A stretch of DNA of 63,327 nucleotides, filler included, from Stramenopiles sp. TOSAG23-6 (GCA_900128565.1; 45 parts of 45 records of this genome joined end to end with filler, not necessarily neighbours in it), one strand, 5' to 3'. Positions 4,162 to 63,327 are shown, counted from the whole stretch's first letter. Program-made: numbers and translations. The notes: generated from the letters alone by a model not told the origin.

Positions 4162-4350
4162 NNNNNNNNNNNNNNNNNNNNNNNNNNNNNNNNNNNNNNN
4201 NNNNNTTAATTAATTAANNNNNNNNNNNNNNNNNNNNNNNNNNNNNNNNNNNNNNNNNNNNTTAATTTGAAATTTTTTTTTTTTTTATAGTAAATTTTGT
4301 ACCTAACGATTTTTTTTAGATTTTTTTTGAAATATTTTTTTAAAATACAG

Positions 4351-5481
4351 GGAACATTACTGATTCAGTTTTTTTTCGTGAGACATTTGAAAATTCTCGA
4401 CATTCTGAACATTCAAACCAAAGAAATAATGGGGAACATTTTGAACAAGTTGAAAGAGATGATTGTTGTGGTTGTCTCATTTCAAATTATGTATGTTTTA
4501 TGTGGTTGAAATATTATTTTTTCCAAAAAAAATTTCCAAAAAAAATTCCAAAATTTTTTAACAAAGATTTCAAAAAAAAATTCCAAAATTTTTTAACAAA
4601 GATTAAATGTTGAAATTTCATCATACTACATTATAGAATGGTCATGCTAGTGCAGTGTTTGATGTTGATTTTTGTTCAAGTGGACAATATAAAGGCCATT
4701 TTTTTGCTACTGCATCTCTGGACAGAACTGCTCGGTTATGGTCAACACTTAGAAAACGTGCATTTCGTGTTTTTATAGGTCACACTAGCGATGTTAGTTC
4801 CATATCATTTCATCCAAATGGAACATCAATTGTTACAGGTTCAAGTGATAAAACAATCAAAATGTGGGATATTCGATGTGCTGAGGAAATTACAACTATT
4901 TCAGGTTTTACTTCTGAAGTTGATGTAATTGCAATTTCTCCTAATGGGAATCAAATCGCATCTTCAGGACATGGTTATAATTGTAAAATTTGGGATGTTC
5001 GAAATGTTCATCATTCTATATGTACGTTTTTATTTTTTTTTTTCTTTGGATACAAAACATACAAAATTTCATACCTAACCATTTAAAAAAAAAATCCTAA
5101 TTTTTTTTTTATTCCTAAAAAAATTAAAAAAAAAAAATTTTAAATTTTTTAAAAATCCTAAAAAAAATCCTAATTTTTTTTCTTTTTCCAAATTATTTCT
5201 TGACAATACAGTATGCAAAGGACATTCGGCAAAAATAAATTCTTTATGTTTTAGTCAAGACGCTGAAATTCTTGCTTCGGGGTCTCAAGATTGTACGTTT
5301 TCAGAATGAATTTAAAATTGTTTTTTTTTTCGTACGAAATTTTGTACCTAACAAATTTCGAATTTAATTTTCGGATTTGGTCTTGTAAAAGCCCTAACCC
5401 TAATAACACGTCTTTTGAATATAAAAGACAAATCTTTCAAAAACCAATTAATTCATGGAGAACAAAATATACTCCAGTCAT
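4351..5481 (+). CDS. TAF5-like WD40 protein, C-terminal part (exons 4351-4490, 4637-5021, 5212-5292, 5364-5481)
   Basis: FATASLDRTARLWS..RVFIGH.SDV..FHPNG..TGSSDKT..MWD and terminal TKYTPV match TAF5. Confidence 0.75.
5293..5363 (+). other. Non-canonical GT-AT intron
   Basis: Restores WD motif ASGSQDFNFRIWS; no AG between the branch motif (5328-5352) and the RIW codons. Confidence 0.7.
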
Positions 5482-5842: not shown

Positions 5843-5965
5843 ATAAAGACGACCTAAAAGAGACGCACAAACCATACCAATTCGACCGTGACCATGATGG
5901 GAATATTCGCCGTAGAGTGATATTTTTGAAAACTTTGAAAAATTAGAAGGTAAACATTTTTTATA

Positions 5966-6043
<78 letters not shown>

Positions 6044-6631
6044 GCATTGAAAAAACGTACAAATGTAAATCTTATTCTTTTTTACACTAAGCAATTTCTC
6101 AATTTGACAAAGAAAATTTCGAAATTTTGTTTCATCAGGACATTTGCCACGTGGCATAGGAAATCGTATATACACCAAATTATTTTTTTTTGGTAGTATA
6201 TTTAGTAGTTCTTTGGCTCTTTCATGTTTTGTGAAAAATATATAATTTTTTTTTCTTATATTGTTAGGTACAAAATTTCGTATAAAAAAAAAAAAAAAAA
6301 AAAAAAAANNNNNNNNNNNNNNNNNNNNNNNNNNNNNNNNNNNNNNNNNNNNNNNNNNNNNNNNNNNNNNNNNNNNNNNNNNNNNNNNNNNNNNNNNNNN
6401 NNNNNNNNNNNNNNNNNNNNNNNNNNNNNNNNNNNNNNNNNNNNNNNNNNNNNNNNNNNNNNNNNNNNNNNNNNNNNNNNNNNNNNNNNNNNNNNNNNNN
6501 NNNNNNNNNNNNNNNNAAAAAAAAAAAATTTCATATTTTTGTAAAAAAAAAAAATAAAACATACATCTTGCCATTTTTTGTTCTTCTGTTAGACTTTGAA
6601 CATTTGTAACGGCTATTTTTGCGCGTTCCAT
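5843..6631 (-). CDS. PTP/DSP-fold protein fragment lacking the catalytic Cys (IYIYSHHGHGRIG)
   Basis: YIRFPMP..KCPD..F and IYI-x-S-x2-GHGR-IG..ASLLGRLY resemble the HCxxGxGR P-loop; region spans an N gap. Confidence 0.6.
5905..6060 (-). other. Non-canonical GT-AT intron
   Basis: T|AT junction rebuilds the P-loop spacing; the AG alternative gives TAA; end is 15 nt after AAATAT. Confidence 0.75.
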
Positions 6632-8519
6632 ATAATGTAGAAAAATATTTCAATTTAAAAAAAAAATTTAAAATTTTTTTGTTAGGTACAAAATTTCGTA
6701 TTAAAAAAAAAAAAAAAAAAAACCTTATTAATTAAAANNNNNNNNNNNNNNNNNNNNNNNNNNNNNNNNNNNNNNNNNNAAAAAAAAAAAATTTCATATT
6801 TTTGTAAAAAAAAAAAATAAAACATACATCTTGCCATTTTTTGTTCTTCTGTTAGACTTTGAACATTTGTAACGGCTATTTTTGCGCGTTCCATATAATG
6901 TAGAAAAATATTTCAATTTAAAAAAAAAATTTAAAATTTTTTTGTTAGGTACAAAATTTCGTATTAAAAAAAAAAAAAAAAAAAACCTTATTAATTAAAA
7001 NNNNNNNNNNNNNNNNNNNNNNNNNNNNNNNNNNNNNNNNNNNNTTAATTAATTAANNNNNNNNNNNNNNNNNNNNNNNNNNNNNNNNNNNNNNNNNNNN
7101 AGTCTATACAGCAATCTAATCTCTAAAGTCTTACAAAAAGGTACGTTGTTCATTATTCACAATATTTCTAAACCACAATCAATAATCTATAACATATAAG
7201 CAAAAAATACAATACAAGTAAAACTAGCTTCAAAAGAGAAAAACGATACCGTAGAAAACGAATTATAAACGATTTATAAAAGTAACGTTACACAATCGAT
7301 AGACATGACCCAGAGGATGGAAAGAATATAGACGGAGAAGAAATTAAAAATCGTTTTAAAATATGATAATGCTGTGTATAACAATGAAATATCATATAGA
7401 GNCACCACAATGTTTCAACCCGTCGGTACAATAAAGCTCGACCTTGGAATCACTACAGTGAAACTATACTTCACTAGACCTCGACTTCATCTGGTCGGTC
7501 GACTGAAAGCCGACGTTGGATTTCAACTAGTTTTTACAGGGAAACTTGATATTGGAATACTGGTTAGACCACATGTCACTAAACAGTATTAATGAGAGAA
7601 CAAAATGAAACGAAGAAAAACTTGTACAAAAAGATGATCCTGTAGCGGGCATTTTCGAGGCATTTATTTTGACTCTTGTGTCAGTGGAGACTTACAATCA
7701 ACAGAATGAGTGATTTCATCACTTCATACAACATTCAGTTTGAATTTCAATGTGTCTGTAAATGATTAACTGGGACACTAAGCTAAAGGTATTACAACGT
7801 AGCCTGTCCTTCCAATATGTGATACCTCAGTCCACGTCAATTTTTGAATTCGTGTTTCTATAATATCCAACAAACCGTCCAGGAACGGAACCGATTATTT
7901 ATAACTTTTGGTTTGGTTTTTATTTGGTTTTTATTTGGTTTTTATTTGGTTTGGTACAAAAATTCTATATATAAAGATAGACAAGAAGAGTGTATTTCCA
8001 AAAGCAGGTTTGCTCTAAAAAATATAAATGCATTATTACATTTATCCACAGAATATCCTTTTGTGACATACCTATCTAAATGAGGTTGGTGTACTGTGCC
8101 AAGATAATATAGACATGCTATGTCATACATGGATATTCTCTGGAACAGTGTAATAATGCATTTATATTTTTATGAGATTTTGTGATTCTTGTGTCATTTC
8201 GTCGATAGCCTTTTTGGCCGTGCGTGATGCATAAAATGCCATGTAGTCCTTTAGGTACGAAATTTGATACAAAACAAAACTGACACTAACTTTCACTCTG
8301 TAGGTGCATCATAATGATCCAAATCACAATTTGCGTATATATCTATGCTCATTGATGTCTTTCTTCAAGTGTATCAAGTCCATGATGAAAATGAAGAAGT
8401 CATTCGAAGTTTGTTTGANNNNNNNNNNNNNNNNNNNNNNNNNNNNNNNNNNNNNNNNNNNNTTAATTAATTAANNNNNNNNNNNNNNNNNNNNNNNNNN
8501 NNNNNNNNNNNNNNNNNNA

Positions 8520-8550
<31 letters not shown>

Positions 8551-8626
8551 TAGTGTACAATGAAAAAAAAATCGTTAGGTACAAAATTTCGTACGAAAAA
8601 AAAATAGTGTACAATAAAAAACGGAC

Positions 8627-9700
8627 CTGTCATTAAACTCAATGGTTTATCAAAACTAACAAATCCATTCCCCAACAATGGACTACTAGGGTTAGGGTAA
8701 CCATCAAAAGTGGTTAATATGTTTCTTGACGATTGTTCTACAGTTTCATTATTTGTATTATTTAGAATTGTCTTTTTATTTTGTTTCATATTTCGTGTTT
8801 TTTCTAATTTCCGTTTTTGATAATTTTTGAAATATTTCTGTAATAATTTTGCTGCTTTTAAGTGAACCTTCAATCGCTCCTGTAATGTAAAAATTTTGTT
8901 GTTGTTGTTTATGATGAGTTAGTTGAGGATGTATACCTTTTTTTTTTTTTTTTTTTTTTTTATTTTAAATTTTTTTTTTTTTTTTTTTTTTTTAGGTCAA
9001 AAATTTCGTATTAAAAAAAAAAAAAAATTTTTTTTCGAAATTTTTTTTTAAAAAAAAAAAAAAAAAATATTTAGGTACAAAATTTCGTATTAAAAAAAAA
9101 AGTACATTGCTACTCGTAAATGTTCTTTAAGAGACATATATTTGCGTCTCCAAATAAATTCTAAAAAAAGTTGACCGGGTAACGGATCAGTACAAGTATG
9201 ATTTTGATGTTTTTCATAATTTTCTTTTTCTTTGTGTTTTTCATAATTTTCATAATTTTCTTTTTTTTTGTGTATTTCGTGTTTTTGTGATAAATCTAAC
9301 CAAGAACTCATTAAAACCGAATTATTAGAATGACCAGATATTGAATTTTTTTTCATTTTATCTAATAAAAATGACCAAGGAATTGAAACGGTACCTACTT
9401 TAATGGTAAAAAAATATATTTGATTTTTTTTTTGTTAGGTATATAATTAACTATGAAAAAAAAATTAAAAAAAAAAATTAAAAAAAAAAAAAATTTCTTA
9501 GGTACAAAATTTCGTATGAAAAAAAAATTAAAAAAAAAAATTTAAAAAAAAAAAAATCTTAGGTACAAAATTTCGTATGAAAAAAAAAATATCATCATAA
9601 AACATTAATCCATTGTAAACGTACATAATTCAGGTAATAAATCTTCGTGGAATCCTTTATTCCAACGATATATATTGTGAAACATATTTGTTGTATTCAA
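8627..9700 (-). CDS. Multi-exon hypothetical protein with IQ-like motifs
   Basis: KAAKLLQKYFKNY IQ-like segment; several intron motifs; junctions uncertain. Confidence 0.4.
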
Positions 9701-9736
9701 AAGATTTAGTTAGGTACAAAAAATTGTATGAATTTT

Positions 9737-9776
<40 letters not shown>

Positions 9777-10177
9777 GTTTAGGTAAAAAATTTCGTACGA
9801 AACCAAAAAAAAAAAAAAAAATCGAAATTGAAAAAANNNNNNNNNNNNNNNNNNNNNNNNNNNNNNNNNNNNNNNNNNNNTTAATTAATTAANNNNNNNN
9901 NNNNNNNNNNNNNNNNNNNNNNNNNNNNNNNNNNNNAGCTGGCATGATTTTTACAAAACCTCTGTAAAAATATCATTCATTTAGGAATTTAATGTGTACT
10001 AAATTAGTTTCACAAAACGTATTTTCTACACATATAAAAAAAAAATATTGTTTATATTTAATCTTGAATGATAATAAAAATGTTTTTTGTAAATATATCG
10101 TAAAATATAATCTAGTTTACATTCCAGTATTCAAATATCGTGTTTTATTAGAATTCAGATCCACAAATAAATTATGA

Positions 10178-11067
10178 TTATTTTTTTTTCCTTAGAATAC
10201 AAAGAAAGTCTCTATTGTAATATAAATTGGTTTCGTCTTTTGGGGTTTCTTGGACTATTTCTAAATCTGCTTTATTAGCCAGATGTCGTATAATATCAGG
10301 CGAAATAAAGTAAAAGCCTCCAACAGTAAAACGTTTTTGATTTGAAAACCTATTCCAACCGAGAGTAGAACAAATGTTTGCAGTCGATATAAAAGCAACA
10401 CCCGTATCAGACAACATTGAATGTATGTATTGTAAGTATTGCCATATGGTATGTACATCAACATGAACAAAAACGTCAAATGCATAAATAAAATCAAAAG
10501 ATTCGCGAAACTTTTCAAATGACTTTGCACTATAATCTTCCTTCAAATGACAAAAACTAATATGAGTTCCTTTTATCTCAGTATCAAGTCCTCTCAATGA
10601 CAAAGCTTTACGCGCACGTTTCAACATTTCCAGAGACATGTCAAATAACTGAAGACTCTTTGGCCTATAGCCATACGCCCACCACCACTTCCAATTTCGG
10701 CAACGCGAGTGTTTTCGTCGATATAGGGTTTTATAAAATCGCTGATTACTGTATCTAAAGCTGCACGGTCAGACCATTCCTCGCCAATAACTGGACTACT
10801 ACTCAAAGGGCTGCAACTTTCGCTGACATTTTTTATCATATTTTGTACCCAAGGCGCCTCCAAATTCCACTCTTTTGCATAAAGATCCCATAACTTTCGA
10901 TTGGTCAAGACATTTCCTGGGTCAACGTTAACTACTGCTCCACCGAGTTTTTTTAACATTTGCAAAACAAGAGGGGACGCATCACTGCGCGATACTTTAT
11001 CTAGGTGCTTATGAAAATCTTCGATAGGCTCATCAGACATATTAGAATGAGGGCGCACATCATCCAT
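10178..11067 (-). CDS. Class I SAM-dependent methyltransferase with a frameshift near 10665
   Basis: VAEIGSGGGR motif I, FDMSLEML motif II in a shifted frame, FDFIYAFDVFVH. Confidence 0.8.
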
Positions 11068-11759
11068 GATGTATATAACTTCTTCGAATCAAATATTTTC
11101 GTGACCTCAAGAATATAATAATTTAATAAACAGATAGTACTGTAGTAGTATTGTCGCTACTATGGTAAATTATCACTTTATCAAGTGTTTAGTGATGCTA
11201 AAGGTAATGCAACCGGGAAACTGCAATATTTGGCCAATATTTGTGAATTTGTGANNNNNNNNNNNNNNNNNNNNNNNNNNNNNNNNNNNNNNNNNNNNTT
11301 AATTAATTAANNNNNNNNNNNNNNNNNNNNNNNNNNNNNNNNNNNNNNNNNNNNAAAACTATATAAAGCAGTGAAACTAAAACTATATAAAGCAGTGAAA
11401 CTAAAACTACGCGTATAAGAAATTTCTCTATTTATGGTGCATTCATACGACACTGTTGCTAAAACCTCTTTGATTCAATATTTTAGAACCAATCTACTCA
11501 AATCACAAAATATACCTAGAAGAATGGTAATGTTTTATATATTTTGGCTCTATGGCTATTTTGGGGGTACTCTCTACACAGTATACAGCTAGGAACTAGC
11601 TTGAAACAATAAGACGGATGTTTCTGTCATGACTTGATTGATAAAGACCGCGTGAGTCCGTGACACGTGTCACAAAAAAGTCAGCAAAAAAATAAAAGAA
11701 ATTCCAAAAGTTACACACAAAGTCAAAGTGGGTACGTATATAAATAATTAGACAAGAAA

Positions 11760-12671
11760 ATGTCTGTATTTGGGACACAATGCTTTATTAATCCTATACG
11801 AAAACAAATGCATTCTAATAAAAAACCATGGCTGGCATTTCAGCGTATATTTCGTCGATTTCAGAGTACATCACCGTTAAAGTTACAAGTAAGACATACA
11901 AGGAACAAAACTGAGAAAAATGCAATAAACAAACATTTTTTTAAAGTAGCTCTAGTAGGACGTCCTAACGTTGGGAAATCAACTCTATATAACCGTCTAG
12001 TTGGTGGTAGACCAGCGATTTGTCACCGAGAACCAGGTACGACTCGAGACCGGCAAGAAGGAACTGCTTGGCTTGCAGGTCTTCAATTTACAGTCGTAGA
12101 CACAGGAGGACTCGAAGAAGGTGGTGAGGAAACCATGGAAGGCAAAATTACTCGGGCAACTGAGTTAGCTATTGAAGAATGCGATGTCGCCATTTTAATG
12201 CTTGATGCTCGTGCTGGTGTAACTTCATTAGATGAACATTTTGTTCGATGGATTCGTAAACGATCGGATAAAACGCCAATGCATATGGTCCTAAATAAAA
12301 CTGAAGGTTTTTTCGATCGGGTACAAGAATATGAAGACGGTTGGATCGAACCTGAAGATTCTCGTTGGTTACAACTGAATTCTGATATTCAACGTCTTGG
12401 ATTCTCTAATCCAGTGGCTATATCTGCAGAGCATGGTACTGGAATGGTGGATTTGTGGCATTTATTATACCCTCATTCTAAAATTACGTCTGAAATGGTG
12501 AAAAGTGATGAAAAGTTTGATTTATCCTCTTCAAGTATTGAAATCAGTAATAATTTGAATAATTTAAATATGAATGTAACACTTAACGATCAAGATGACG
12601 AATTACACGATGACTACAATTTTGAGGAATTTGAATCTCAAAATAAAAACAATGCCAATTTTGAGGAATTT
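11760..12671 (+). CDS. der: EngA/Der ribosome-biogenesis GTPase with N-terminal presequence-like extension (3' partial), copy 1
   Basis: VALVGRPNVGKSTLYNRL, PGTTRDR, DTGGL, NKTE and ISAEHG; basic N-terminus suggests mitochondrial targeting. Confidence 0.92.
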
Positions 12672-52299: not shown

Positions 52300-53111
52300 A
52301 CAATACTTACACGTACATCAACGAATCTCTATCCAAAAATACATAATGTACTGATTCGTATTAAATACGTCCAATATGCATTACAAAAAACTTTTGTATT
52401 TCTAAATAACAAAAAGTGGCGCCAACCTGTAGATCATAGAGTAAATATTTGTATGTTTTTTTTTTTCAATTGTGAATGTTTTGTGAATGTTTTTTTCGTA
52501 CGGAATATTGTACTTAACATTTTTTTTTTGAAATATTTTTCCAAAATATTTGTGGAGTCCTTCGATTTAAAATGCAGCATGTAGTTTCTGCGATTCAAAC
52601 ATATATTGTTAATCAAATTAAACATAAAGCTTGGAGAAAGTTAAACACTGCTGTGAGAAGTATAAGTCAATCAAATGATATTATTTTTTCAGTGAATGTT
52701 TTAAAAGATGCCCATTTCGAATATATTCAACACATTGCATCTCATTGCTTTGTGATACCGAATGAAAGAAACATTATCCTAAAAAATCGTATAGATTCGT
52801 GCTTTGAGTGCATTATTCGGTTTTGTGATTTAATTCGATCTAATCAAGTAAATCATATGATGACTGGTAATGGAATTGTTTCTTTACATTGTACAATGAC
52901 AGCAGCTATGAGACCAGCAGGTATGAAGGAACAAGAGCTTTTTATTCGTGCAGTTTTGACTACATCAAGAGAATTTCAATCACTACAAAAAACTCTTTGT
53001 CAAGNNNNNNNNNNNNNNNNNNNNNATTTATTAAATACTCGTTTTGATGATAGGATTAGTGGATTTCATTCTGATTGTCCGCTCCGACAATTGGTTTTAT
53101 CTATTACTTGA
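52300..53111 (+). CDS. Gamma-tubulin complex component (GCP family) C-terminus
   Basis: Y.KI...LIRIKYV.YAL, LRFKMQHVVSAIQTYI..QI...W and LKDAHFEYI..I..HCF. Confidence 0.7.
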
Positions 53112-53625
53112 ATCTACAAAGATTAATCAATTTGAAATCAATGTTGATAATGTACATATATTGTACATTGATACATTGCAATAAAACGGTGTACAGAATA
53201 CAGAAAAAAAAAATTAATTGTTTTGATTGTAGTCCAAAGAATGAATAGTTTNNNNNNNNNNNNNNNNNNNNNNNNNNNNNNNNNTGGATTGGATTTGTGC
53301 TTCAGCTGCGTTGATCCTGGCTCTACGTTTGACAGATGCAGCTGCGTTGATACTGGCTCTACGTTTGACAGAGTTGTCCGTGGATATCACTTTAATTGTA
53401 TATCAAAAGTTATCAAGAAAAAAATGAATTTTACATTTTAAAATCAATAATAATAAATTGTTTTTTTTATGTCTGTTATTTTTATTAATTTTACCAATGA
53501 CAATAGTAAGTATTGTGAAAAAATANNNNNNNNNNNNNNNNNNNNNNNNNNNNNNNNNNNNNNNNNNNNTTAATTAATTAANNNNNNNNNNNNNNNNNNN
53601 NNNNNNNNNNNNNNNNNNNNNNNNN

Positions 53626-54420
53626 TAAATGAACAACAGAAAGGAGTCGAACGGAGTTATCCCCAAGAGATAGCATTACATGAGACCCATTTTTCGACAC
53701 ACCAATCGAACGAATAGTTCCTCCTTGTCTGGGTATGAATGTCTTGTCTTCAGATTCGACTTGCCATATAACTAATACAGCTTCTTCACCTCCAGAGTAA
53801 ATGTACGAACCATCGATACTAAAAGCCATACAACGGACTGCATGAGCGTGCCAGTGACCTAGTTTTTCTACCAAAATATTCTGGGATAGCACACCAAACC
53901 AAAAGTTTCATTCCAACTGCTGTAGCTAAAAATCTTCCACCTCCATAAACAACGCCTACAGATGGCTTCTTAGAAAACTGGATTGCAATCTTTCGTTTTT
54001 CTTCATTGCTATTCAGCGTAGAAGTATTTCTTAAGTTCAACTCTTCTAAGGAATATTTGCCATCCCGCGATATTAAAACGAAGCAGCTGTATTCTTGATA
54101 TGAGGATACTACCATATCAAGTACAGGTGTACCAACATCAATCTTCCGCAAACAAGTACCATCTTCAGTATCCCATATGCGAACAGTTCCATCGAGGGAA
54201 CAGGAAAGGAGTTGTAAACCATTCTTAGGGTGAGTTATTAGGCGAGTCACTAAGTTTTCATGACCTGTCAGCGTATTGATTGTTTCACCTGTCTTACACC
54301 TAAAACGCGTACATCGCTTTCAGCAACACAAAAACCATACTTGCAATTATCAGAGAAAATAACCGGGTGGCTTGAAATGCATGATCCGATTGTTTCAGAT
54401 TCTAAATGTAAGGGAGGCAT
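53626..54420 (-). CDS. WDR75/Utp17-like WD40 protein N-terminus with frameshifts
   Basis: HWHAHAV..MAFS.DG.YIYSGGEEAVLVIWQ...KTFIPR.GG.I is typical of WDR75. Confidence 0.75.
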
Positions 54421-54629
54421 TTTGGCGTTTTCTCTGTAGTACAGAGTGTTGAAGTTTACAATCTACAAAATCACTGCATGCTGAAACTATTTTTGCAAGC
54501 GGTTTTGATACCCGGTTCACCATGAAATCGTCCGATTTTTCGTATTCAGTCAGAATTATTTTTTGTTCATGTTTCATTCCAAGGTAGCCTACTTCGTAAG
54601 AGCTAATATAAAATTAAAAGTTTAAAACA

Positions 54630-54908
54630 ATGAACAAAAAACAATTAGAGGGGACGTTGAAAAGCCAGTTTCAAAATACACAAGTCGGTGGGTATGGCTT
54701 CGTTGCAGCGGACAAAAATGTTTGGCGACAGCCTCGAATTTCTCACAAGCCTGTAACAGTCAAGGATATGACAGGTAAAGTTAGCTTGGTGAATGAGAAA
54801 GATAGTGGCATCCATTCCGACAGAGTATGTAAGAAAACTAGTACATCAGTGGAGCGGAAGAAGAAGAAAAAACACAAAAAGGCAAAGAAGAAGAAAAAAA
54901 AGAAGTAA
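54630..54908 (+). CDS. Small Lys-rich protein, divergently oriented from the WDR75-like gene
   Basis: ATG-to-TAA ORF about 210 bp from the WDR75 start; may be truncated. Confidence 0.4.
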   Translation: MNKKQLEGTLKSQFQNTQVGGYGFVAADKNVWRQPRISHKPVTVKDMTGKVSLVNEKDSGIHSDRVCKKTSTSVERKKKKKHKKAKKKKKKK

Positions 54909-55026
54909 AACAAAATGAAAAAGAAANNNNNNNNNNNNNNNNNNNNNNNNNNNNNNNNNNNNNNNNNNNNTTAATTAATTAANNNNNNNNNNNNNNNNNN
55001 NNNNNNNNNNNNNNNNNNNNNNNNNN

Positions 55027-56327
55027 GAAATTGATAATGAATCAGTGAATACTATGGAATATTTTGGGGAGATTAAACGTCTGCTTTTTTCATTATGGAA
55101 AGGTTTGAATAGTTCTGAAATTGGACAAATTTATTGTAGAAATCGGGCAAATGTGAATATTTCACAACTAATTAAAAGTAATGTTTGGTATCTCATCAAT
55201 GCTCATTGTGATATATTATTGAATGTTGTATCTCGCATAATAAAATCCGATGATGTTGAAGACTCCATAGAAAGAAATGGTAATAATAATACCACCCAGT
55301 TTATATTTGCCTTAGTATGTAAAATATCAGAAGAGAAACATGAAAAACAATCAAGATATTCTAGTATGTGGCAAAAATTAGCTGATTTTATCTCTAAAGA
55401 CTTATTTGATGATGAAACCAGTTTAGTAGGTACAAAATGTATACCAAAAGTTTCTCAGGGTAAGCAACACACTGATATTGGTATAATATTAGCTGGAGAG
55501 TCCACATTAAACAATATGATGGATAGTAAATTATATAATTTATTGTATTCAGAGTCTTGTGCCATAGGTGAAGTTGCTTTACGTGTTGCATGTTTTGTGT
55601 GTACTATATCTGATGTATTATTTTCTGAGGGCGTCAACGATAATATAGAAAACCTTTCGTTTCATATTCAAGTAGAAAATATTGCTAAAGATGTTTGTAA
55701 AGCCATTTTGCTAAAAGTGAAGAAATTTTATTCATTGTCAATTAAATCAGTAGAAAAGCACTCATTAGATGTATCACAATTACTTTCTGCTGCTGTTCGT
55801 CTCGTCATGTATTTCCCTTTATTGAGTGAGGTTGATAAGAGCCCTNNNNNNNNNNNNNNNNNNNNAATTTCTTATACCAGCAATACAAAGATTACAACAT
55901 AGAACATCTGATACACATGATGTACTAAAGGAAAGTATTGATATGGAATTATGGTCATTAATAGCTCTCAGTTGCTGTTACATGCAACAAGTACAATTGA
56001 AAGGCAATACAAATTACAAATCTAAAAGTATAATTATTGATGATTGTGTTGATGTATGGCAATGTTTACTATCTACAATAATGTCACTTCCTCAATCTAT
56101 GATAGTAAAGGGGACACTCTTTCTATTGCGTATTATGGCCGATGGTGTTGGTATAAGTAAGTATCCTGGTTCTTATTCTTGCGGGGTGAAATCTTGGGGT
56201 GATTTATGGAAATATCCTTCATTTGAAGAGGCTTTTGCAATTGCAGAATCTTTTCCATTAGATTCTCCCTTTGTGAACTTGCGACAGCGGTTATTGTTAC
56301 GACTCTTGGCGAATCAACATGTCCCTT
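55027..56327 (+). CDS. Large helical-repeat hypothetical protein fragment
   Basis: Open frames across the whole contig, interrupted by an N gap. Confidence 0.5.
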
Positions 56328-56461
56328 NNNNNNNNNNNNNNNNNNNNNNNNNNNNNNNNNNNNNNNNNNNNTTAATTAATTAANNNNNNNNNNNNNNNNN
56401 NNNNNNNNNNNNNNNNNNNNNNNNNNNTTTTCAATTTAGAATTTATTTTTCCAAAATACAT

Positions 56462-57340
56462 AACCCTGTGAAACTGCTCGTTCCTCTTCTTGTAACAAAT
56501 ACGCTTTGTACTGCTGTAGCACATACGTTTTCAAAATTGAATTTTTTACCATTTTCAAATTTTTTTTTTCATCGTAAATTTTACACCTAACTTTTTTTTT
56601 TTTTTAAACCAAAAAATAATATTTTTTCATAATACATTAACCGTATTTGAGAGACCTGATCCTAGAGCAAATTTGCATAGCTATGGCGAAGCTATTTATC
56701 TTTCACTGATTACAATGTCAACAGTCGGCTATGGGGATTACTACCCAGTTACATTTTTTGGTCAACTCAGTATTATATTTGGAGGTGTCATTGGGGGAAC
56801 ATTACTAGCTACTCTTTTAATTACAGTATTTGTGAATAAAAGTGCGACCTCACACCAAGAAGATTATGTCATTAACATTGTACTCAGAAGAAAATGGAGG
56901 AAAAAGCTTAGGGACAATGCTGCATCTGTAATACAATGTGCCTTTAAAGCAAGACTACTACAAATTAAAAGAGATCGTGGAAATAAAAGAGTCACCAATG
57001 AAATGCAAAAGATACATCAAAAATTATTTTCCAGTATACAAAACATGCGGAGAGTAAGGCTTCAAAGGCCTGACGATCAAACAGATCGACAAATCCAAGA
57101 TGAATGGACAGAAAGTATTCGAAGGATATTATTGACTTTAACTGGTGAGAAGAGTCCAGTCTTTAAAAGATCTGGGAAATCGAGTTCTATAGTAGAAACT
57201 AATGTGACAATACTAGAACTGATGGATAATGTGCGAAAAAGACAAGATAAGTTAGAAGCTCTCACAAATGAACTTACGGGAGTTGCAGCGCTGCTTCAAC
57301 AGAAAATATCATTGAAAAAAAAGAACTACAAACAAAAAAA
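56462..57340 (+). CDS. SK/KCNN-like potassium channel (S5, pore, S6, CaM-binding region); exons 56462-56522 and 56638-57340
   Basis: ITMSTVGYGDYYPVTFFG pore and AASVIQCAFK CaM-binding-like segment. Confidence 0.88.
56523..56637 (+). other. AT-AT intron
   Basis: ATACGTTTTC donor; C|TA gives P...FER spacing equal to KCNN S5; end is 15 nt after AATAT. Confidence 0.78.
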
Positions 57341-57387
57341 NNNNNNNNNNNNNNNNNNNNNNNNNNNNNNNNNNNNNNNNNNNNNNN

Positions 57388-57686
57388 TTACCATCTCGTT
57401 GACCTAGCTCTTCCACGTAATAAATATTGCATTGCATCAACTAAAGAATAACTACTAATACTGTCTATCACCCATCTATAATCTACAACCTGTATGATTT
57501 CGTTTTGATTCATTTCTTTGAGATTTCGTGGTAAATGTCCAGCTGTAAGCGCAGAATCACAAACAACGATTGATGAAGAAAACGATTTTCCTTCAGACTT
57601 TGAATTTTCAATTAACTGTTCAATTGTCCAAGCTATTACGCCTCCACCTAACTGCGCAAGACCATTCAGTACGGATTTAGAAGGAC
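57388..57686 (-). CDS. Terminal exon with BRCT-like domain
   Basis: LGGGV...IVVCD...VVDYRWVIDSISSY.L....Y; preceded by the branch motif and ...AATACAT. Confidence 0.6.
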
Positions 57687-59355
57687 ATGTATTGTGAAAA
57701 AAAAAATGTATAAAATTCGTTAGGTATANNNNNNNNNNNNNNNNNNNNNNNNNNNNNNNNNNNNNNNNNNNNTTAATTAATTAANNNNNNNNNNNNNNNN
57801 NNNNNNNNNNNNNNNNNNNNNNNNNNNNCAAATATTTTTTTTTTTTTTTTTTTTGGTCATCGTGTGCGCTAACCAATACAACATTACGAGCTAGTGTAAA
57901 TAGTTTTTGGTATAAGTTCACACTGGGTTTTGTTTGACTTTGATAAATTGTAAATGAATCATCTGTTTTACCATTAAGTTTGCATCCAAAAAATATACGA
58001 GGCGGAATACTCACACCATCAATTGATGCATGTTTCATTAATTCAAATAGTCTTGTTTTAGGGTCAAGAAGTTCAGGGTCATTCTTTTTCCAACACAAAC
58101 CTTCTCTGGAACAATCCTCATATAATTTGCCAATTCCAGAGGACCACAGTAAATTCAATACATCATCTATACATGTATTTAATTCTTGTTTATAACGCTG
58201 TCACAGTGTTCTTCAATTACTACACAAGGGTCTTCTTCTAGTCTAAAGATAATACTTTTTTTGTTGGGCATATCTAGCATGACAGGAACTTGTAAATCAT
58301 TCCTTGGCTTGCTCTTTTGCCGTCGGGCAACGGAAAGCCTTGTTGTTAGAACAATACATAGAAATACACTGAAATCGAATGGAATTATTATCATTGTACA
58401 TTGTAATATAACACTCTGCGTTCCTACAGCCGTGTTTTTGGTGATGATTCTAAAAAAAAAACAGTCAGTAAACTGCTTAGAAAAAATTTAATNNNNNNNN
58501 NNNNNNNNNNNNNNNNNNNNNNNNNNNNNNNNNNNNNNNNNNNNNNNNNNNNNNNNNNNNNNNNNNNNNNNNNNNNNNNNNNNNNNNNNNNNNNNNNNNN
58601 NNNNNNNNNNNNNNNNNNNNNNNNNNNNNNNNNNNNNNNNNNNNNNNNNNNNNNNNNNNNNNNNNNNNNNNNNNNNNNNNNNNNNNNNNNNNNNNNNNNN
58701 NNNNNNNNNNNNNNNNNNNNNNNNNNNNNNNNNNNNNNNGCTGACTCATGTTTTTCTCATGGGGATTTTGCAAATGCACGTAATCATCTCGACCGTTCCT
58801 TAGACATATTTTCAGGGATGCCGTCTAGTGTGGAAAGTAAATATATGGTAAATGCCGTAAAGCGACGTATAGTTGGGGTTTGTGAAATGATAGGCGATGT
58901 AGCAGAAGGTGAAAGGTTGTTGCTTGAGATTCTTTCTTCGGAGCTCGGAAGCGAGGAAGAATATCTTATGAAACGCTGCATATCCCGCCTTTATATTCAA
59001 CAAAATAGACCAAGTGAAGCTCTCAAATATCTTTCGAAAATGTCAGACGTTGAGTTAGATTCCACTGTTGACAGGGTTAGTGCTAGAGTAGAAGATCTTA
59101 TTTTACTTGGTATAGTTAATAGTATGGATNNNNNNNNNNNNNNNNNNNNNNNNNNNNNNNNNNNNNNNNNNNNTTAATTAATTAANNNNNNNNNNNNNNN
59201 NNNNNNNNNNNNNNNNNNNNNNNNNNNNNTAGATTTTTTTTTACAATGTTCAAATCAAAAAAAAAAAATTGTAGATTTTTTTTTTCTTTTTTTTTTTCGT
59301 AGTACATTTTGTACCTAACGAATTTCAAATACATAAATATTTTTTACTATATATA

Positions 59356-60529
59356 TCGCTTGGAGATTGCTGTACAGGACTTTAACAATGTTGAAAAAAC
59401 TCAAAACGACACAAATGACAGGTACGTTTTAAAACTTTTTATGTATCATTTGTTTTATATAGAAATATATATATTTTTTTTAATTTCGTACGAAATTTCA
59501 TACCTAACAAAAACAAATTAAAATTTTTGAAAAATGTTTTGAAATATTTCCCCAAAAAAACATATTGACACCAAATGATCAAAATACAGGTCAACATTCA
59601 AAATCATCAAAATCATCAAAAACAACAGTAAAGAGTAATTCACAACAACAGGTATTACAAAGTGAAGGACACACTGACAACAGTTCTGTTCCATCAACTG
59701 AAACAGAACACACTGACAACAGTTCTGTTCCATCAACAGAAACAGGACACACTGACAACAGTTCTGTTCCATCAACAGAAACAGACAAAGAAGAAAAAAA
59801 TAGTTCTGTTCCATCAACAGAAACAAAAACAAAAACAAACACAAACACAGAAGAAAAAGCAAAAGAAAAAAATGAAAATGAAAATGAAGAAACACAACAA
59901 CACAAAGAAGAAGACAGTGAGAGATTGGCTTTACTTCATAATGTAGAGGATAAATTAGATAGCATTATTCAGAATGGTATCAATGGTAAAGCATCAGGAG
60001 GACCAAAAGAACAACCAGCAGCAGAACAAGCAGTAACAGCAAAACCAACAAAACAACCAGCAGCAGAACAATCAGCAACAGCAAAACCAACAGAACAACC
60101 AGCAGCAGAACAACCAGCAAAACCAACAGAACAACCAGCAAAACCAACGGAACAACCAGCAGCAGCAACTGAACAACCAACAGCAGAACAACCAGCAACA
60201 GCAACAGAACAACCAGCAGCAACAGCAAAAGCAACAGAACAACCAGCACCAGAACAAGCACCATCATCAACAGCAAAACCACAACCTACACCAGTGGTAT
60301 CTAGAGCATTTCGTTTTGTTGCGTAGGTTCGTTTTTTATATGAAATGTCATACTTTTTTTTTTTTTGTACGAAATTCTGTACCTAACAAAAAAAACAAAT
60401 TTTTGGAATATTTTTCCAAAATACATGCAGAAGCTTGGAAACCTTCCAAATTAGAAAATATTGATGAATATATACGATATGCAGCTTATTGGATTGAAAT
60501 CGTAAAATTACTTGCTGGCCCTGGTGTCT
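59356..60529 (+). CDS. Repeat-rich protein (HTDNSSVPSTET x3, EQPA repeats), multi-exon
   Basis: Long ORF with 42-bp and EQPA repeats; GT-AT intron 59422-59563. Confidence 0.55.
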
Positions 60530-60670
60530 NNNNNNNNNNNNNNNNNNNNNNNNNNNNNNNNNNNNNNNNNNNNTTAATTAATTAANNNNNNNNNNNNNNN
60601 NNNNNNNNNNNNNNNNNNNNNNNNNNNNNTACGAAAAAAAAATTCGAATTTGAAAAAAAATAAAACGTAC

Positions 60671-61793
60671 ACTAAATTTTTCAGGTGTTGGTGGGATATT
60701 CAAAATATGTGTTTTTGAATCATTATTATTCACTACTGTTGATATTCCTCTAGATTTAAACCGAAATAAATCATATACATTTTGATCTGATTTTGGAACA
60801 TTTGTACTATTTTCAGAATGTTTTTGAAAAAATTGATCTGATTTCGGAACATTTGTATTATTTTCAGAATGTTTCGGCGGCTTTAGTGTCTGATATAAAA
60901 ATATGCTTGTGCGATCAGCAGCAGAAAGAATTGAATCTGTAGAAATAGGCGTTTTAAATCCTAACTCTGAATTCTTTCCGTTTTTATCAAAATCTGTAGA
61001 AATAGGCGTTTTAAATCCTAACTCTAAATTCTTTCCGTTTTTATCGATATTATTCATAGTTTTATTACTCAATTGAGAATTCTTTACGTTTTTATCAATA
61101 TTATTCATAGTTTTATTACTCAATTGAGTTAATTGAGTACTTGTTTTATCAGTAGATTTGTCTTTTGAAGATCTAAAAGAAGAAAAACGAAAGAACCTTA
61201 TATCTTCTTGTTGTTGCATTTTGGCAACTTTTCTTGTTTGATGACCACGTTGAATAGCTTGAATTTTTGTTGCAGCTTCCTCCTGTTGTTGTTCACTTTT
61301 TTTTTTTTCTTTGTTTTCTTTGTTTTCTTTTTTTCTTTGTTTGTTCCATTCAAGAAATTTTCCCGCTTCATTTGGTTTTTGTTCGTTCCATATATTAAAT
61401 AGTTTTTCAAATATTTCTACATATTCATTTGCCATTGTAATTAAATTTGTATCTGTTGTAGAGATTGTTTTTTTATTATCTTTCAACAATTCAACTAACT
61501 TGTTAAATTGAGGCATTTCACTTGAATAGTAGTCTTTAATTACACCATTAAAATACTTTAATTTTTTTTTTAATTTGTCACCAAGGTTAATTGAAGGAGT
61601 ATTGTTTTTATACATCATTAAAGCAAGTCGGTAATATTTACAAAACTCTTTCATCTTAAATTTTAATTCGTTACTCATGTATTTTGGAAAAATATTTCAA
61701 AAAAAAAATTGTTAGGTACAAAATTCCGTACGAAAAAAAATCATACAAAAAAAAAAATCAAACATACATTTTGTCTGCTTTTTCTTGTGCTTT
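60671..61793 (-). CDS. IQ-motif protein fragment
   Basis: AATKIQAIQRGHQTRK; GT-AT intron 61677-61767. Confidence 0.65.
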
Positions 61794-62106
61794 GTATTGT
61801 GAAGAAATATTTTTTTATTCAATGAATCGTTAGGTATGAAATGAACCATTAAAAAAAATATATATGTAAAAAAAAAAAAGTTGTAGAAGAAAAATTTAAA
61901 AAAAAATTAAAAAAAAAAAAAATTAAAANNNNNNNNNNNNNNNNNNNNNNNNNNNNNNNNNNNNNNNNNNNNTTAATTAATTAANNNNNNNNNNNNNNNN
62001 NNNNNNNNNNNNNNNNNNNNNNNNNNNNAAATATTTCAAAAAAAAATCGTTAGGTACAAAATTTCGTACGAAAAAAAAATCGACTTTGAAAAAAAATAAA
62101 ACATAC

Positions 62107-63327
62107 GTGTACATTATAATCTCCATCACCAAGTAGAGTGTTTAATCTTTTCATTCTTTGTTGATCCCATTTTCTATCATTAAAATCTATGAAACGAATT
62201 GATGGACTGCCATCTGTATGAACTCCGCCAATACAAAAGAAAGAGGAATCATTGACGTCATTTGTTTGAAGGAAATTACAACACGTATACGTATTTTGGA
62301 AAAATATTTTAAAAATGTTTTTGTTAGGTACAAAATTTCGTATGAAAAAAAAATTAGAATTTGAAAAAAAATTAAAACATACACTGAGGATCGCGAGATG
62401 TAGAAGGTTCCCATATTAAAGGCGGCTCTTCACTGCCTTGGTTATTTAGTATTGTTGGTGCACTTGGAACAATATGTGATTTTCTAGTCCACGCTGCATC
62501 TGAAGCACGTGTTATTACTATACCGTTAGTTCCTTGTGGCATATGATAATTTATTATATTATCTGCAGTTTGGTTATGTGTTACATTTCGTTTTTTCGCT
62601 TGTGATGTCTTCTGTTCCGACATACGTTTTGATTTATTCGATAATTCTTTTGCTGCTGCTGCAAAAGCACTTGAAGCACATTCATATTCAATATCTTGAT
62701 CATTTATACACATTAATTCTGGTTCATTTGTCAATTGAAGATTTTGAATGTGTGTTATTTTTCTTCGCAATATATATTGTGAAGAAATATTTTTTTTTTT
62801 TAAATACAATTTTTGTTAGGTACGAAATTTCGTACGAAAAAAAAATTAGATAAAAACGTACATATCCAATGATAAAACCCAACCACGATCAAGAACACAT
62901 ATCATTTGTGTTGGATCACTATTTGGTATGCTAATATTTCGTATATTCACTTTCCGTAAAGATTTTGGAAGCAAACGACAAAATTCAGATGTTTCAATTT
63001 TAAAAAACATCTTCGGAATTCTTTTAGCTCCGAATGTTGGTACAGAAAGTTTTCTAATATCGTATCCAATTACACCTGTAGATGTACTACAATATACTTG
63101 ATTATAATGACCTATAGCTAAATTATTGATACGTATCTTTTTTGAAGTATTTTGAGATGACGTATTTATCTGATCTGAAAAAAGAGGGCGTTTTGATGAA
63201 CACCGAATGTCCCAAAGTCTAATCATTCCATGTACATCAACTGCAACAATACTATTTCCACCACGTACAGAATTACTATTGAAGCATTTCATACCGATAG
63301 TACCAACACGAGATCCGTTATTATTTG
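62107..63327 (-). CDS. WD40-repeat protein, internal exons
   Basis: G.IRLWDIR and VIGYDIR; introns 62772-62861 (GT-AT) and 62289-62382 (GT-GT). Confidence 0.65.

What the first reader, a model, noticed from the sequence alone, without database searches (positions are those of the whole stretch)
5905..62772. A 15-nt ruler: the 3' splice site is set by distance from an (G)AAATAT box, not by its dinucleotide
Seen (hand counts): the acceptor lies exactly 15 nt after the last T of AAATAT, or a close variant, at 1812, 4350, 5211, 5905, 17677, 20400, 26066, 29069, 30766, 49862, 50512, 52551, 56637, 61677, 62289 and 62772. The distance is 16 nt at 17986, 22354 and 59563, and 14 nt at 35424. It holds whether the end is AG, AT, TT or GT, and even when the spacer is atypical (AAATAT-CACTCTACGGCGAAT at 5905). 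The distance from the TACCTAAC motif is variable. Exceptions without a correctly spaced box: 4636, 5363, 35787, 36223. Inference: a protein or snRNA binds GAAAUAU-UUUUYC and measures to the cut site. Alternatively, this box holds the real branch adenosine (as in distance-constrained U12 acceptors), or a UUUUGAAA/UUUUCCAAAA hairpin positions the acceptor.
Basis: partly seen in the sequence, partly recalled or inferred. Interest (0 to 1): 0.92.

Follow-up and report, generated by a model that had tools for sequence, protein, structure and literature searches.

The report
Introns ending in AT, not AG
An uncultured marine microbe has short introns that share a long conserved tail and mostly end in AT instead of the near-universal AG (one case confirmed by RNA), and the reported 15-base ruler is the fixed spacing inside that conserved tail.

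Summary
The regularity is real. Three more sites have one-off variants, and three lie at 16 nt.

The 15-nt spacer is not free sequence. Twenty-two unique 3' ends align without gaps at 81% column identity over 30 nt, with consensus TTTTTGAAATATTTTTYCAMAATAYAK|. So the "ruler" is the internal spacing of a roughly 22-nt conserved 3' element.

The terminal dinucleotide is also constrained. Of 34 curated putative acceptors, 24 end in AT, 8 in AG, 1 in TT and 1 in GT.

Only one junction could be tested with RNA. PolyA metatranscriptome contigs join 59421 to 59564, the skipped part runs GT..AT, and the joint has no ambiguity. That intron has a 16-nt spacer, not 15, so the cut follows the terminal CAT. 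Five earlier AT dinucleotides after the branch motif are skipped.

The hairpin idea gets little support.

Best reading: these are U2-like introns (GTAYGTTTT ... TACCTAAC ...) with an extended 3' splice-site element and a relaxed last base (U or G). A strict ruler is not excluded but is not shown.

An AT-ending majority intron class looks new in the papers I could search. The organism is unidentified, and the AT majority rests on inferred sites.

The parts
59422..59563 (+). RNA-verified intron of 142 nt: GTACGTTTTA ... TACCTAAC (59501-59508) ... GAAATAT (59541-59547), then a 16-nt spacer ending ACAT
   Evidence: contigs of runs X3 and X4 join 59421 to 59564, skipping 142 nt with ends GT..AT and both=0. 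The X4 record has 54 and 91 letters on the two sides. The X5 record (another study) fits the same joint. Sequence.
59541..59563 (+). 3' element of the verified intron. The box-to-cut distance is 16 nt, not 15.
61677..61767 (-). Typical 91-nt intron: GTATGTTTG ... CGTACGGAATTTTGTACCTAAC ... GAAATAT TTTTCCAAAATACAT|. It follows a short 5' leader exon, and an ATG is formed across the joint.
   Evidence: The junction is ambiguous by 2 nt because AT ends both the exon and the intron. No RNA.
62289..62382 (-). 94-nt intron with box at 15 nt. Its inferred end is ACGT|, and GT also ends the upstream exon.
   Evidence: In frame. No RNA.
62772..62861 (-). 90-nt intron, AAAATAT TTCTTCACAATATAT|
   Evidence: In frame. 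No RNA.
30610..30766 (+). 157-nt intron in a PP2C-like gene, with two branch blocks and GAAATAT TTTTTCATAATCCAT|
   Evidence: Exon 1 matches Pfam PP2C. The joint gives ..KHHTPYDPIETSRI.. by my own reading.
49731..49862 (+). 132-nt intron that lacks TACCTAAC but keeps GAAATAT TTTTTCAAAAGTCAT|
50376..50512 (+). 137-nt intron, GAAATAT TTTTTTACAGTACAT|, with TTAGGGTTAGGG just after the 5' site
52451..52551 (+). 101-nt intron with box at 15 nt. Its inferred end is ATTT|, and TTT also ends the upstream exon.
   Evidence: No RNA.
25959..26066 (+). 108-nt intron, GAAATAT TTTTTCAAAATTTAT|. A TTTTTTTTAG 12 nt after the branch motif is passed over.
   Evidence: It is in frame only with the 5' site at 25959 (my own count). 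One search took 25955.
20400..20506 (-). 107-nt intron, GAAATAT TTCTTCACAATATAG|
17986..18133 (-). 148-nt intron, GAAATAT plus 16 nt ending TCAT|
   Evidence: 17986 is in frame, while 17987 (15 nt) is not.
22151..22354 (+). 204-nt intron, GAAATAT plus 16 nt ending ACAG| (copy at 23565-23768)
   Evidence: Two frames are open downstream, so 22353 is not excluded.
5905..6060 (-). Intron with disputed 3' end: 5905 (AAATAT plus a G+C-rich 15 nt, ends AAT) or 5920 (ends CAAAAATAT|)
   Evidence: both are in frame; composition favours 5920; weak, non-significant phosphatase-like matches whose spacing favours 5905.
5293..5363 (+). 71-nt intron without a box. It ends AAT| only 12 nt after the branch A.
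   Evidence: The WD-repeat reading ..GSQDFNFRIWS.. has the usual length (my own reading).
4491..4636 (+). 146-nt intron without a 3' box, ending ATAG|. A GAAATAT sits near its 5' end.
36223..36335 (-). 113-nt intron without a spaced box, ending AAACAT| (copy at 37630-37742)
4329..4350 (+). 3' element GAAATAT TTTTTTAAAATACAG|
48050..48071 (+).
50837..50858 (+). 3' element GAAATAT TTTTTCACAGTGCAT| (not listed)
60405..60426 (+). 3' element GGAATAT TTTTCCAAAATACAT| (not listed). The 5' site of this intron is unclear.
   Evidence: No RNA joint seen.
29069..29090 (-). 3' element GAAATAT TTTCTAAAAGTAAAT|
16845..16862 (-). Shortened 3' element AAAATAT TCACAATACAT|, with the box only 11 nt from the inferred cut
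   Evidence: The acceptor is inferred from motif and composition only.

Best explanation
The window holds about 1.3-kb contigs of an AT-rich, uncultured marine eukaryote. Its genes are broken by many short (71-204 nt) spliceosomal-type introns built from three conserved blocks.
- A 5' site, GTAYGTTTT.
- A branch block, (C)GTAYGAAATTTYGTACCTAAC.
- A 3' element of about 22 nt lying 34-56 nt after the branch A: T-run, GAAATAT, six pyrimidines, then AMAATAYA[T/G].

The 15-nt distance is the internal spacing of this 3' element. I infer that the element as a whole marks where the second splicing step takes place. The exact cut falls after the A[U/G] (mostly CAU) that closes the element. The last base has relaxed from G to U or G.

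Shown:
- The motif and its spacing.
- The A[T/G] bias among inferred sites.
- One GT..AT junction in RNA.
- Earlier AT dinucleotides are skipped.

Inferred:
- The element is read by a protein or snRNA of a U2-type spliceosome.
- TACCTAAC is the branch site.
- The other 33 acceptors.
For: -: 22 unique 3' ends align ungapped at 81% mean column identity over 30 nt. Within the spacer T16, T17 and A22 are invariant, and T19, A24, T26 and A29 are at least 90% conserved.
- of 34 curated sites, 24 end AT, 8 AG, 1 TT and 1 GT. The box is at 15 nt in 21, at 16 in 3 and at 11 in 1, and no box lies within 9-20 nt in 9.
- the RNA joint 59421|59564 skips GT..AT with both=0. The spacer there is 16 nt, so the cut follows CAT rather than position 15.
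- at 17986 the 16-nt site is in frame and the 15-nt site is not.
- sites with spacers of 11, 14 and 16 nt all end CAT, CAG or AAG. Between 1 and 7 A[T/G] are skipped between branch motif and cut, and the branch-to-cut distance is 12-56 nt.
- the 3' element is kept where the rest has diverged. The 49731 intron lacks TACCTAAC, and the 22151 intron has only ACCTAAA.
- G+C jumps from a mean of 2.9 in the last 15 intron bases to 5.8 in the first 15 exon bases.
Against: - Only one junction has RNA support. The other acceptors were placed by frame plus the motif itself, so the counts are partly circular.
- If 5905 is the true acceptor, a G+C-rich non-consensus 15-mer is cut at exactly 15 nt. The phosphatase-like spacing weakly suggests this (neither match is significant). 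That would fit a ruler better than a motif.
- Inferred ends AAAT, TTAT, ATTT and ACGT at exactly 15 nt look like point changes that did not move the cut, which a ruler also predicts.
- The 60426 intron may need a cut at 14 nt if its 5' site is GTAGGT (my own frame count, no call).
- No factor or snRNA that reads the element was found. No snRNA lies in the window.
Confidence: 0.55

Rival explanations
1. True ruler. A protein or snRNA binds (G)AAAUAU and places the second-step cut 15 (plus or minus 1) nt downstream. The spacer sequence and the last two bases are only preferences.
For: - The box is at 15 nt in 21 of 34 curated sites and at 16 in 3.
- Inferred ends with changed -3 or -2 bases (29069 AAAT, 26066 TTAT, 52551 ATTT, 62289 ACGT) keep 15 nt.
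- 5905, if real, has an unrelated spacer of exactly 15 nt.
Against: - The only RNA-verified cut is at 16 nt and follows CAT.
- The spacer is conserved, so distance and sequence are confounded.
- A[T/G] ends 32 of 34 sites.
- Nine of 34 sites lack a spaced box, and one has it at 11 nt.
- 5905 has an in-frame alternative at 5920 with intron-like composition.
- GAAATAT also occurs near intron 5' ends without any cut.
Confidence: 0.2
2. Shared descent only. The introns are recent copies of one mobile intron family (introner-like), and the box and its spacing are inherited baggage with no role in choosing the 3' site.
For: - Introns in unrelated genes share idiosyncratic stretches outside the three blocks.
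  - RATTTTTTTTAGATTTTTTT before the box at 4300, 26017 and 17136.
  - AAATTTAAGTTTTTTTTTT at 48022, 5730 and 5796.
  - TTTTTTTTCAAATTCGAATTTTTTTTT after the 5' site at 62382, 62106 and 60670, and in an RNA loose end.
- 3' variants come in sub-families: TTCTTCACAAT, TTTTCCAAAAT and TTTTTCATAAT.
Against: - Intron interiors otherwise differ widely in length (71-204 nt) and content, while the blocks stay.
- The 3' element survives where the branch block has decayed (49731, 22151).
- No target-site-duplication signal: the exon-end and intron-end dinucleotides agree in 5 of 18 complete introns (my count), about what composition gives.
- Copies were not found elsewhere. The scans gave only single chance matches.
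Confidence: 0.1
3. A UUUUGAAA / UUUCAAAA hairpin around the box hides the inner AU dinucleotides and presents the first free CAU or CAG to the spliceosome.
For: - The consensus TTTTGAAA-TATT-TTTCAAAA is an inverted repeat.
- 60426 has a compensated GG/CC stem (-7.2 kcal/mol, z -3.6).
- 75% of cells pair, against 69.7% in shuffles.
Against: -: of 30 3' ends folded, most have energies of 0 to -3 kcal/mol. 27 of 30 have z-scores above -2, and 5 show no pairing at all (5211, 17677, 56637, 62772, 16845).
- sliding the partner by -1 still gives 72.6% paired, 25% of cells do not pair, and pair 7-23 fails in 9 of 21 sequences.
- Sub-family members with an A-run upstream (1812, 62772, 21345, 56637) cannot form the stem.
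Confidence: 0.05
4. The real branch adenosine lies in GAAAUAU, and the cut is set by a short fixed branch-to-3' distance as in U12-type introns. TACCTAAC would then have another role.
For: - The A's of the box lie 17-21 nt from the cut, a usual branch distance.
- The box distance is fixed while the TACCTAAC distance is not.
Against: - TACCTAAC is a near-perfect extended yeast-type branch consensus (recalled: UACUAAC) and is present in 25 of 34 sites.
- The box-less intron 5293-5363 ends 12 nt after the TACCTAAC branch A, with nothing else to branch at.
- Nine of 34 sites have no spaced box.
Confidence: 0.05

Closest known systems
U12-type (minor) introns and their 3' site choice
   Same: - The 3' end tolerates bases other than AG.
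- GT-AT ends occur. PMC1557818 (passages and Table 2 read) counts 7 GT-AT among 66 non-canonical U12-type introns of human and mouse, and says GT-AT can splice.
- The 3' site lies at a constrained distance from an upstream conserved motif (recalled: Dietrich et al.).
   Different: - The 5' site here is GTAYGTTTT, not RTATCCTT.
- The conserved branch motif is TACCTAAC, 34-56 nt from the cut, not 10-20 nt.
- The fixed-distance motif is a separate GAAATAT box.
- AT ends are the majority here, not a rarity.
Rare U2-type GT-AT introns of mammals (DGCR2)
   Same: A good U2-type 5' site combined with an AT 3' end (PMC1557818, passage read).
   Different: These are single exceptional introns among hundreds of thousands. 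Here 24 of 34 inferred ends are AT.
Constrained 3' intron architecture in intron-poor eukaryotes (Irimia and Roy 2008, PMC2483917)
   Same: Strong branch consensus and fixed geometry at the intron 3' end.
   Different: - I saw only the search listing and the start of the abstract.
- By recall, that work concerns branch-to-AG distance in intron-poor species.
- Here introns are dense, the branch distance is variable, a second motif sets the geometry, and the end is AT.
Introner elements (Micromonas, Aureococcus) and the repeated non-canonical introns of Amoebophrya (PMC7789003, passages read)
   Same: Families of look-alike introns spread over unrelated genes in marine protists.
   Different: - By that paper's account, the Aureococcus elements have terminal inverted repeats, direct repeats and canonical splice motifs.
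- Amoebophrya non-canonical introns have no preferred end dinucleotides, and a subset of them has 8-20 nt inverted repeats.
- Here the 5' GT and branch site are strict, the 3' end is A[T/G], and no direct-repeat signal beyond chance was seen.
Non-conventional introns of euglenids and diplonemids (PMC12621601 section 5 and passages; PMC6792441 passages)
   Same: Marine flagellate lineages in which most introns lack GT-AG. Single-cell genomes were the first hint.
   Different: Those introns lack the GT 5' site and any consensus ends, and rely on pairing of the two intron ends. Here the 5' site and branch site look fully spliceosomal and only the last base differs.

Membership tests
U2-type (major) spliceosomal introns | 5' end GU with an extended consensus fit for U1/U6 pairing | tested here: met
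   31 unique GTAYGTTT sites lie at ends of open frames. 18 of the 19 complete introns printed begin GTAYGT. The 5' site of the 60426 intron is unclear.
U2-type (major) spliceosomal introns | Branch-site motif of the UACUAAC kind upstream of the 3' end | tested here: met
   An AYYTAAY motif (mostly TACCTAAC) lies 12-56 nt before the cut in 25 of 34 curated sites. Its use as the branch point was not tested.
U2-type (major) spliceosomal introns | 3' end AG | tested here: not met
   AG ends 8 of 34 sites and AT ends 24 of 34. One AT end is verified by RNA.
U2-type (major) spliceosomal introns | Precise removal from mature mRNA | tested here: met
   PolyA RNA contigs join 59421|59564. This holds for one intron only, and the other two introns of that contig were not bridged.
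U2-type (major) spliceosomal introns | Matching U1, U2 and U6 snRNAs in the genome | not testable with these tools
   No whole genome is held. Rfam found no snRNA in the window.
U12-type (minor) introns | 5' site RTATCCTT | tested here: not met
   All 31 5' sites read GTAYGTTT. The family consensus is recalled.
U12-type (minor) introns | Branch motif TCCTTAAC within about 10-20 nt of the 3' end | tested here: not met
   The motif is TACCTAAC at 34-56 nt in 24 of 25 introns. The family consensus is recalled.
Introner-like mobile intron family | Many near-identical copies in unrelated genes | tested here: inconclusive
   The blocks and some inter-block stretches are shared. However, interiors vary from 71 to 204 nt, and only about 58 kb of one assembly was available.
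Introner-like mobile intron family | Terminal inverted repeats and target-site duplications | tested here: inconclusive
   The exon-end dinucleotide equals the intron-end dinucleotide in 5 of 18 complete introns, near the expectation from composition (my count). The 5' GTATGTTTT and 3' AAAATAC are imperfect complements, but both are also splice signals.
Euglenozoan non-conventional introns | No GT-AG, no U1-type 5' site, ends held together by pairing | tested here: not met
   The 5' GTAYGT is strict. The family definition comes from PMC12621601 and PMC6792441 passages.

The most novel reading that the evidence does not exclude
In this uncultured marine lineage the main spliceosome has given up the 3' terminal G. 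GU...AU introns are the dominant class. The 3' site lies far (34-56 nt) from a strict UACCUAAC branch. It is picked out by a dedicated element of about 22 nt whose GAAAUAU box is read by a lineage-specific factor, which positions the second catalytic step within a base or so. This would be a hybrid of motif reading and measuring not described for any U2-type system.
Probability: 0.3. Interest if true: 0.85.

Novelty: new variant of a known kind. Interest (0 to 1): 0.62.

Why it matters
The AG at the intron 3' end is among the most constant signals in eukaryotic genes. By recall from spliceosome structures, its G is read by pairing with the first G of the intron.

A free-living lineage in which most introns end in AU, yet keep a textbook 5' site and branch site, would be a natural experiment on how the second step finds its site. 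It would also explain why standard gene finders fail on such single-cell genomes.

There is a practical point. Any annotation of this assembly that insists on GT-AG will mis-call most of its genes.

The specific ruler claim matters less. With the data at hand it reduces to a long conserved motif.

Tried and rejected
**More introns from public collections.** I scanned for the branch block GAAATTTTGTACCTAAC.
- Metagenome contigs gave 64 stretches, and none carried the other intron motifs together.
- Viral contigs gave 6 single matches.
- Genome contigs gave 31 single matches in prokaryote records.
- All look like chance hits.

**Transcript-derived proteins spanning junctions.** The PP2C exon found no hit. 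Exon 62384-62770 against shorter proteins found no hit.

**Pfam continuity across the 30766 joint.** Exon 1 matches PP2C, and exon 2 alone gives nothing.

**The 5905 versus 5920 question.** This stays unresolved.
- The PDB search gave only non-significant matches (E at least 0.29).
- The 25-residue piece gave none.
- Pfam PTPlike_phytase scored E 0.0024, below its cut-off.

**RNA cover.**
Only one 1.3-kb contig could then be laid.
- The introns ending near 59355 and at 60426 were not bridged by any contig, which says nothing either way.

**Taxon.**
- No genome is held, and there are no earlier notes on this genome.
- Atlas look-alikes give only Arf/Sar-family GTPase and EF3/GCN1-type HEAT families.
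- MAST-4 (GC 33.9-44.1%, few introns; PMC5269757 passages) and diplonemids were considered and not established.
- Gawryluk et al. 2016 is not held.

**Hairpin and first-AT/AG rules.** Both were considered and rejected.

**Pairing of the 5' end with the 3' end.** No covariation between 5' position +4 (C/T) and the 3' end was visible in 18 introns (by eye).

Full report
**What the window is**

It is a string of about 50 contigs of roughly 1.3 kb, sorted by length and joined by N runs with a TTAATTAATTAA linker. G+C is 20-34%.
- Several contigs occur two or three times, and one is an inverted chimera.
- The DNA runs that hold most of its words date from 2015 and carry a coded organism name. Seawater polyA metatranscriptomes of 2022-2024 hold small parts.
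- The open frames encode ordinary eukaryotic proteins under the standard code: an Arf/Sar-family GTPase, an EF3/GCN1-type HEAT protein, PP2C, kinesin, WD40 and a K+ channel.
- No whole genome is held and I could not name the organism.

**Check of the observation**

I read all 24 listed coordinates on both strands.
- An exact AAATAT ends 15 nt before the listed last intron base at 13 of 24 sites.
- Three more sites have one-off variants at 15 nt (5211, 17677, 56637).
- The distance is 16 nt at 17986, 22354 and 59563.
- 35424 has GGTATAT at 14 nt.
- 4636, 5363, 35787 and 36223 have no spaced box.
- By chance, AAATAT ends 15 nt upstream of 0.26% of all positions and 0.72% of AT-rich positions.

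So the regularity is real and far above chance.

**RNA evidence**

Only one contig could be laid, because the linker pieces block longer stretches.
- Contigs from two polyA runs of one study join 59421 to 59564. They skip 142 nt whose ends are GT..AT, and no letters fit both sides.
- One record has 54 and 91 letters on the two sides.
- A record from a second study runs from 59560 with one other letter and carries the loose end CACAAATG. This fits the same spliced form (my reading).

An intron that ends in AT is therefore really removed. Two points bear on the ruler:
- Its box-to-cut distance is 16 nt, not 15.
- Five AT dinucleotides between the branch motif and the cut are passed over.

**Anatomy**

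The introns are 71-204 nt long and share three blocks.
- A 5' site GTAYGTTT, seen at 31 unique sites. T precedes it in 24 of these and AT in 12.
- A branch block, (C)GTAYGAAATTTYGTACCTAAC.
- A 3' element.

Twenty-two unique 3' ends with the box at 15 nt align without a single gap.
- Mean column identity is 81% over 30 nt.
- The consensus is ATTTTTTTGAAATATTTTTTCAnAATACAT.
- Within the 'spacer', T16, T17 and A22 are invariant, and T19, A24, T26 and A29 reach 90%.

The 15 nt are thus six pyrimidines followed by AMAATAYA[T/G], which is a motif and not free sequence.

**The last two bases**

In a curated, non-redundant list of 34 putative acceptors the ends are AT 24, AG 8, TT 1 and GT 1 (with 48311 corrected).
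- The trinucleotide CAT alone accounts for 16 sites.
- The first exon base is G in 16 of 33 sites.
- G+C rises from a mean of 2.9 (maximum 5) in the last 15 intron bases to 5.8 in the first 15 exon bases.

Caveat: 33 of these 34 sites are inferred from frame, composition and the motif itself, so the counts are partly circular.

**Frame test**

Eighteen complete introns were tested.
- The listed acceptor keeps the frame in 15 of them.
- 26066 does so only with the 5' site at 25959 (my count). The script took 25955.
- 61677 follows an untranslated leader exon.
- 36223 runs into N.
- Since 15 is a multiple of 3, this test cannot tell box+15 from box+0.

**Ruler or motif?**

The informative cases are introns whose spacer length differs.
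- The RNA-verified intron has an extra A in the A-run, and the cut stays with CAT at 16 nt.
- At 17986 the 16-nt site is in frame and the 15-nt site is not.
- By inference, 22354 (16 nt), 35424 (14 nt), 6224 (14 nt, variant box) and 16845 (11 nt, four T missing) all end at CAG, AAG or CAT.
- Nine of 34 sites have no spaced box. These include 5363, which ends AAT only 12 nt after the branch A, and 48311, which ends in an ordinary TTTGCAG.

These cases favour a cut defined by the end of the element rather than by counting. Two observations point the other way.
- Inferred ends AAAT, TTAT, ATTT and ACGT sit at exactly 15 nt, as if point changes did not move the cut.
- 5905 would be a G+C-rich, unrelated 15-mer cut at exactly 15 nt.

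For 5905 the evidence is split.
- 5920, directly after CAAAAATAT, is equally in frame and gives intron-like composition: 2 G/C before the cut and 8 after, against 8 before and 7 after for 5905.
- Weak, non-significant phosphatase-like matches suggest a spacing that fits 5905 better. This rests on my reading and on recalled positions.

The TT and GT ends are each matched by the same dinucleotide at the end of the upstream exon and have no RNA support.

**Hairpin**

The consensus holds an inverted repeat, TTTTGAAA/TTTCAAAA.
- Of 30 3' ends folded, most have energies of 0 to -3 kcal/mol. 27 of 30 have z-scores above -2, and five have no pairing at all.
- On the alignment, 75% of cells pair against 69.7% in shuffles and 72.6% with the partner slid by one. 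A quarter of the cells do not pair.
- Members with an A-run upstream cannot form the stem.

I rate this rival low.

**Branch site**

TACCTAAC is a one-base-longer version of the yeast UACUAAC (recalled).
- It is present in 25 of 34 sites.
- It is the only candidate in the box-less 71-nt intron 5293-5363.
- I therefore take it as the branch site. No lariat data could be had.

**Common descent**

Introns of unrelated genes share odd stretches outside the blocks, and the 3' element comes in sub-families. This points to spread of related copies, as in introners. Three things argue against pure inheritance.
- Interiors differ widely.
- The 3' element survives where the branch block has decayed (49731, 22151).
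- I saw no direct-repeat signal beyond composition (5 of 18 complete introns).

I conclude that descent may explain the uniformity, but selection keeps the element.

**Comparison with what is known**

- GT-AT ends are known as rarities. PMC1557818 (passages and Table 2) lists 7 among 66 non-canonical U12-type introns of human and mouse, plus one conserved U2-type case.
- U12-type introns resemble this system in tolerating non-AG ends at a set distance from a conserved motif. Their 5' site and branch motif are not met here.
- Diplonemid, euglenid and Amoebophrya non-canonical introns lack the GT 5' site and any preferred ends (PMC12621601 section 5; PMC6792441 and PMC7789003 passages).
- Six literature searches turned up no lineage in which GT-AT is the main class.
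A description under its name may therefore exist.

**Verdict**

The interpretation as a sequence-blind ruler is not shown.

The most likely picture is a U2-like intron class with an extended conserved 3' element and an A[U/G] end. The fixed 15 nt is the inner spacing of that element.

The more striking fact is the AT end itself, confirmed once by RNA. It deserves a genome-wide check.

Noticed in passing
60330-60417 (+), and loose ends: The branch-block part of the intron reaches a summed word depth of 53 in one polyA RNA run, far above the neighbouring exons (3-20). The loose ends show that it comes from many other introns of the same family. Unspliced RNA, stable intron products or DNA carry-over could each explain it.
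   Followed up: no
61677-61791 (-): A 24-nt leader exon lies between two intron-type 3' and 5' sites. The start ATG of the downstream frame (MSNELKF...) is formed or kept exactly at the joint (AAAAT|GAGT). The upstream 3' element has no 5' site within the contig, so it could be an ordinary intron or a trans-splice acceptor.
   Followed up: no
60316-60426 (+): The 5' site of this intron is unclear. GTAGGT at 60323 would need a cut at 14 nt from the box (ATACA|). GTTGCG at 60317 would fit the ACAT| end. The coding frame ends in TAG at 60324-60326, so one of the two must hold.
   Followed up: partly
1735, 4508, 30631, 59463 (+): A GAAATAT-like heptamer also lies within about 40 nt after the 5' splice site in 4 of the 19 complete introns printed, where no cut follows.
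   Followed up: no
e.g. 26004-26025 (+), 62815-62836 (-): The branch block holds a second GTACG like the 5' splice site, and in some copies it forms a perfect 16-nt palindrome (GTACGAAATTTCGTAC). In several introns the two pentamers match each other (CATAC..CATAC, TATAC..TATAC).
   Followed up: no
50382-50394 (+); 724-738; 5393-5407; about 29290 (-): Telomere-type repeats (TTAGGGTTAGGG / CCCTAACCCTAA) sit inside an intron just after its 5' site and at three other internal places. The branch motif CCTAAC is itself part of that repeat.
   Followed up: no
38560-38720 (+): The EF3/GCN1-type HEAT reading frame shifts without any intron signal, which points to a frameshift or a sequencing error of the amplified DNA. 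This contig carries none of the intron motifs scanned for.
   Followed up: partly
1422-2741; 11355-15505; 21267-23994; 29737-31043 = 40992-42296; 35365-38078: Assembly artefacts: an inverted self-chimera and contigs present two or three times. Any count on this window must be de-duplicated.
   Followed up: yes
31 sites: The exon base before the 5' site is T in 24 of 31 sites and the last two bases are AT in 12 of 31, instead of the usual AG. The first exon base after the 3' site is G in 16 of 33.
   Followed up: partly
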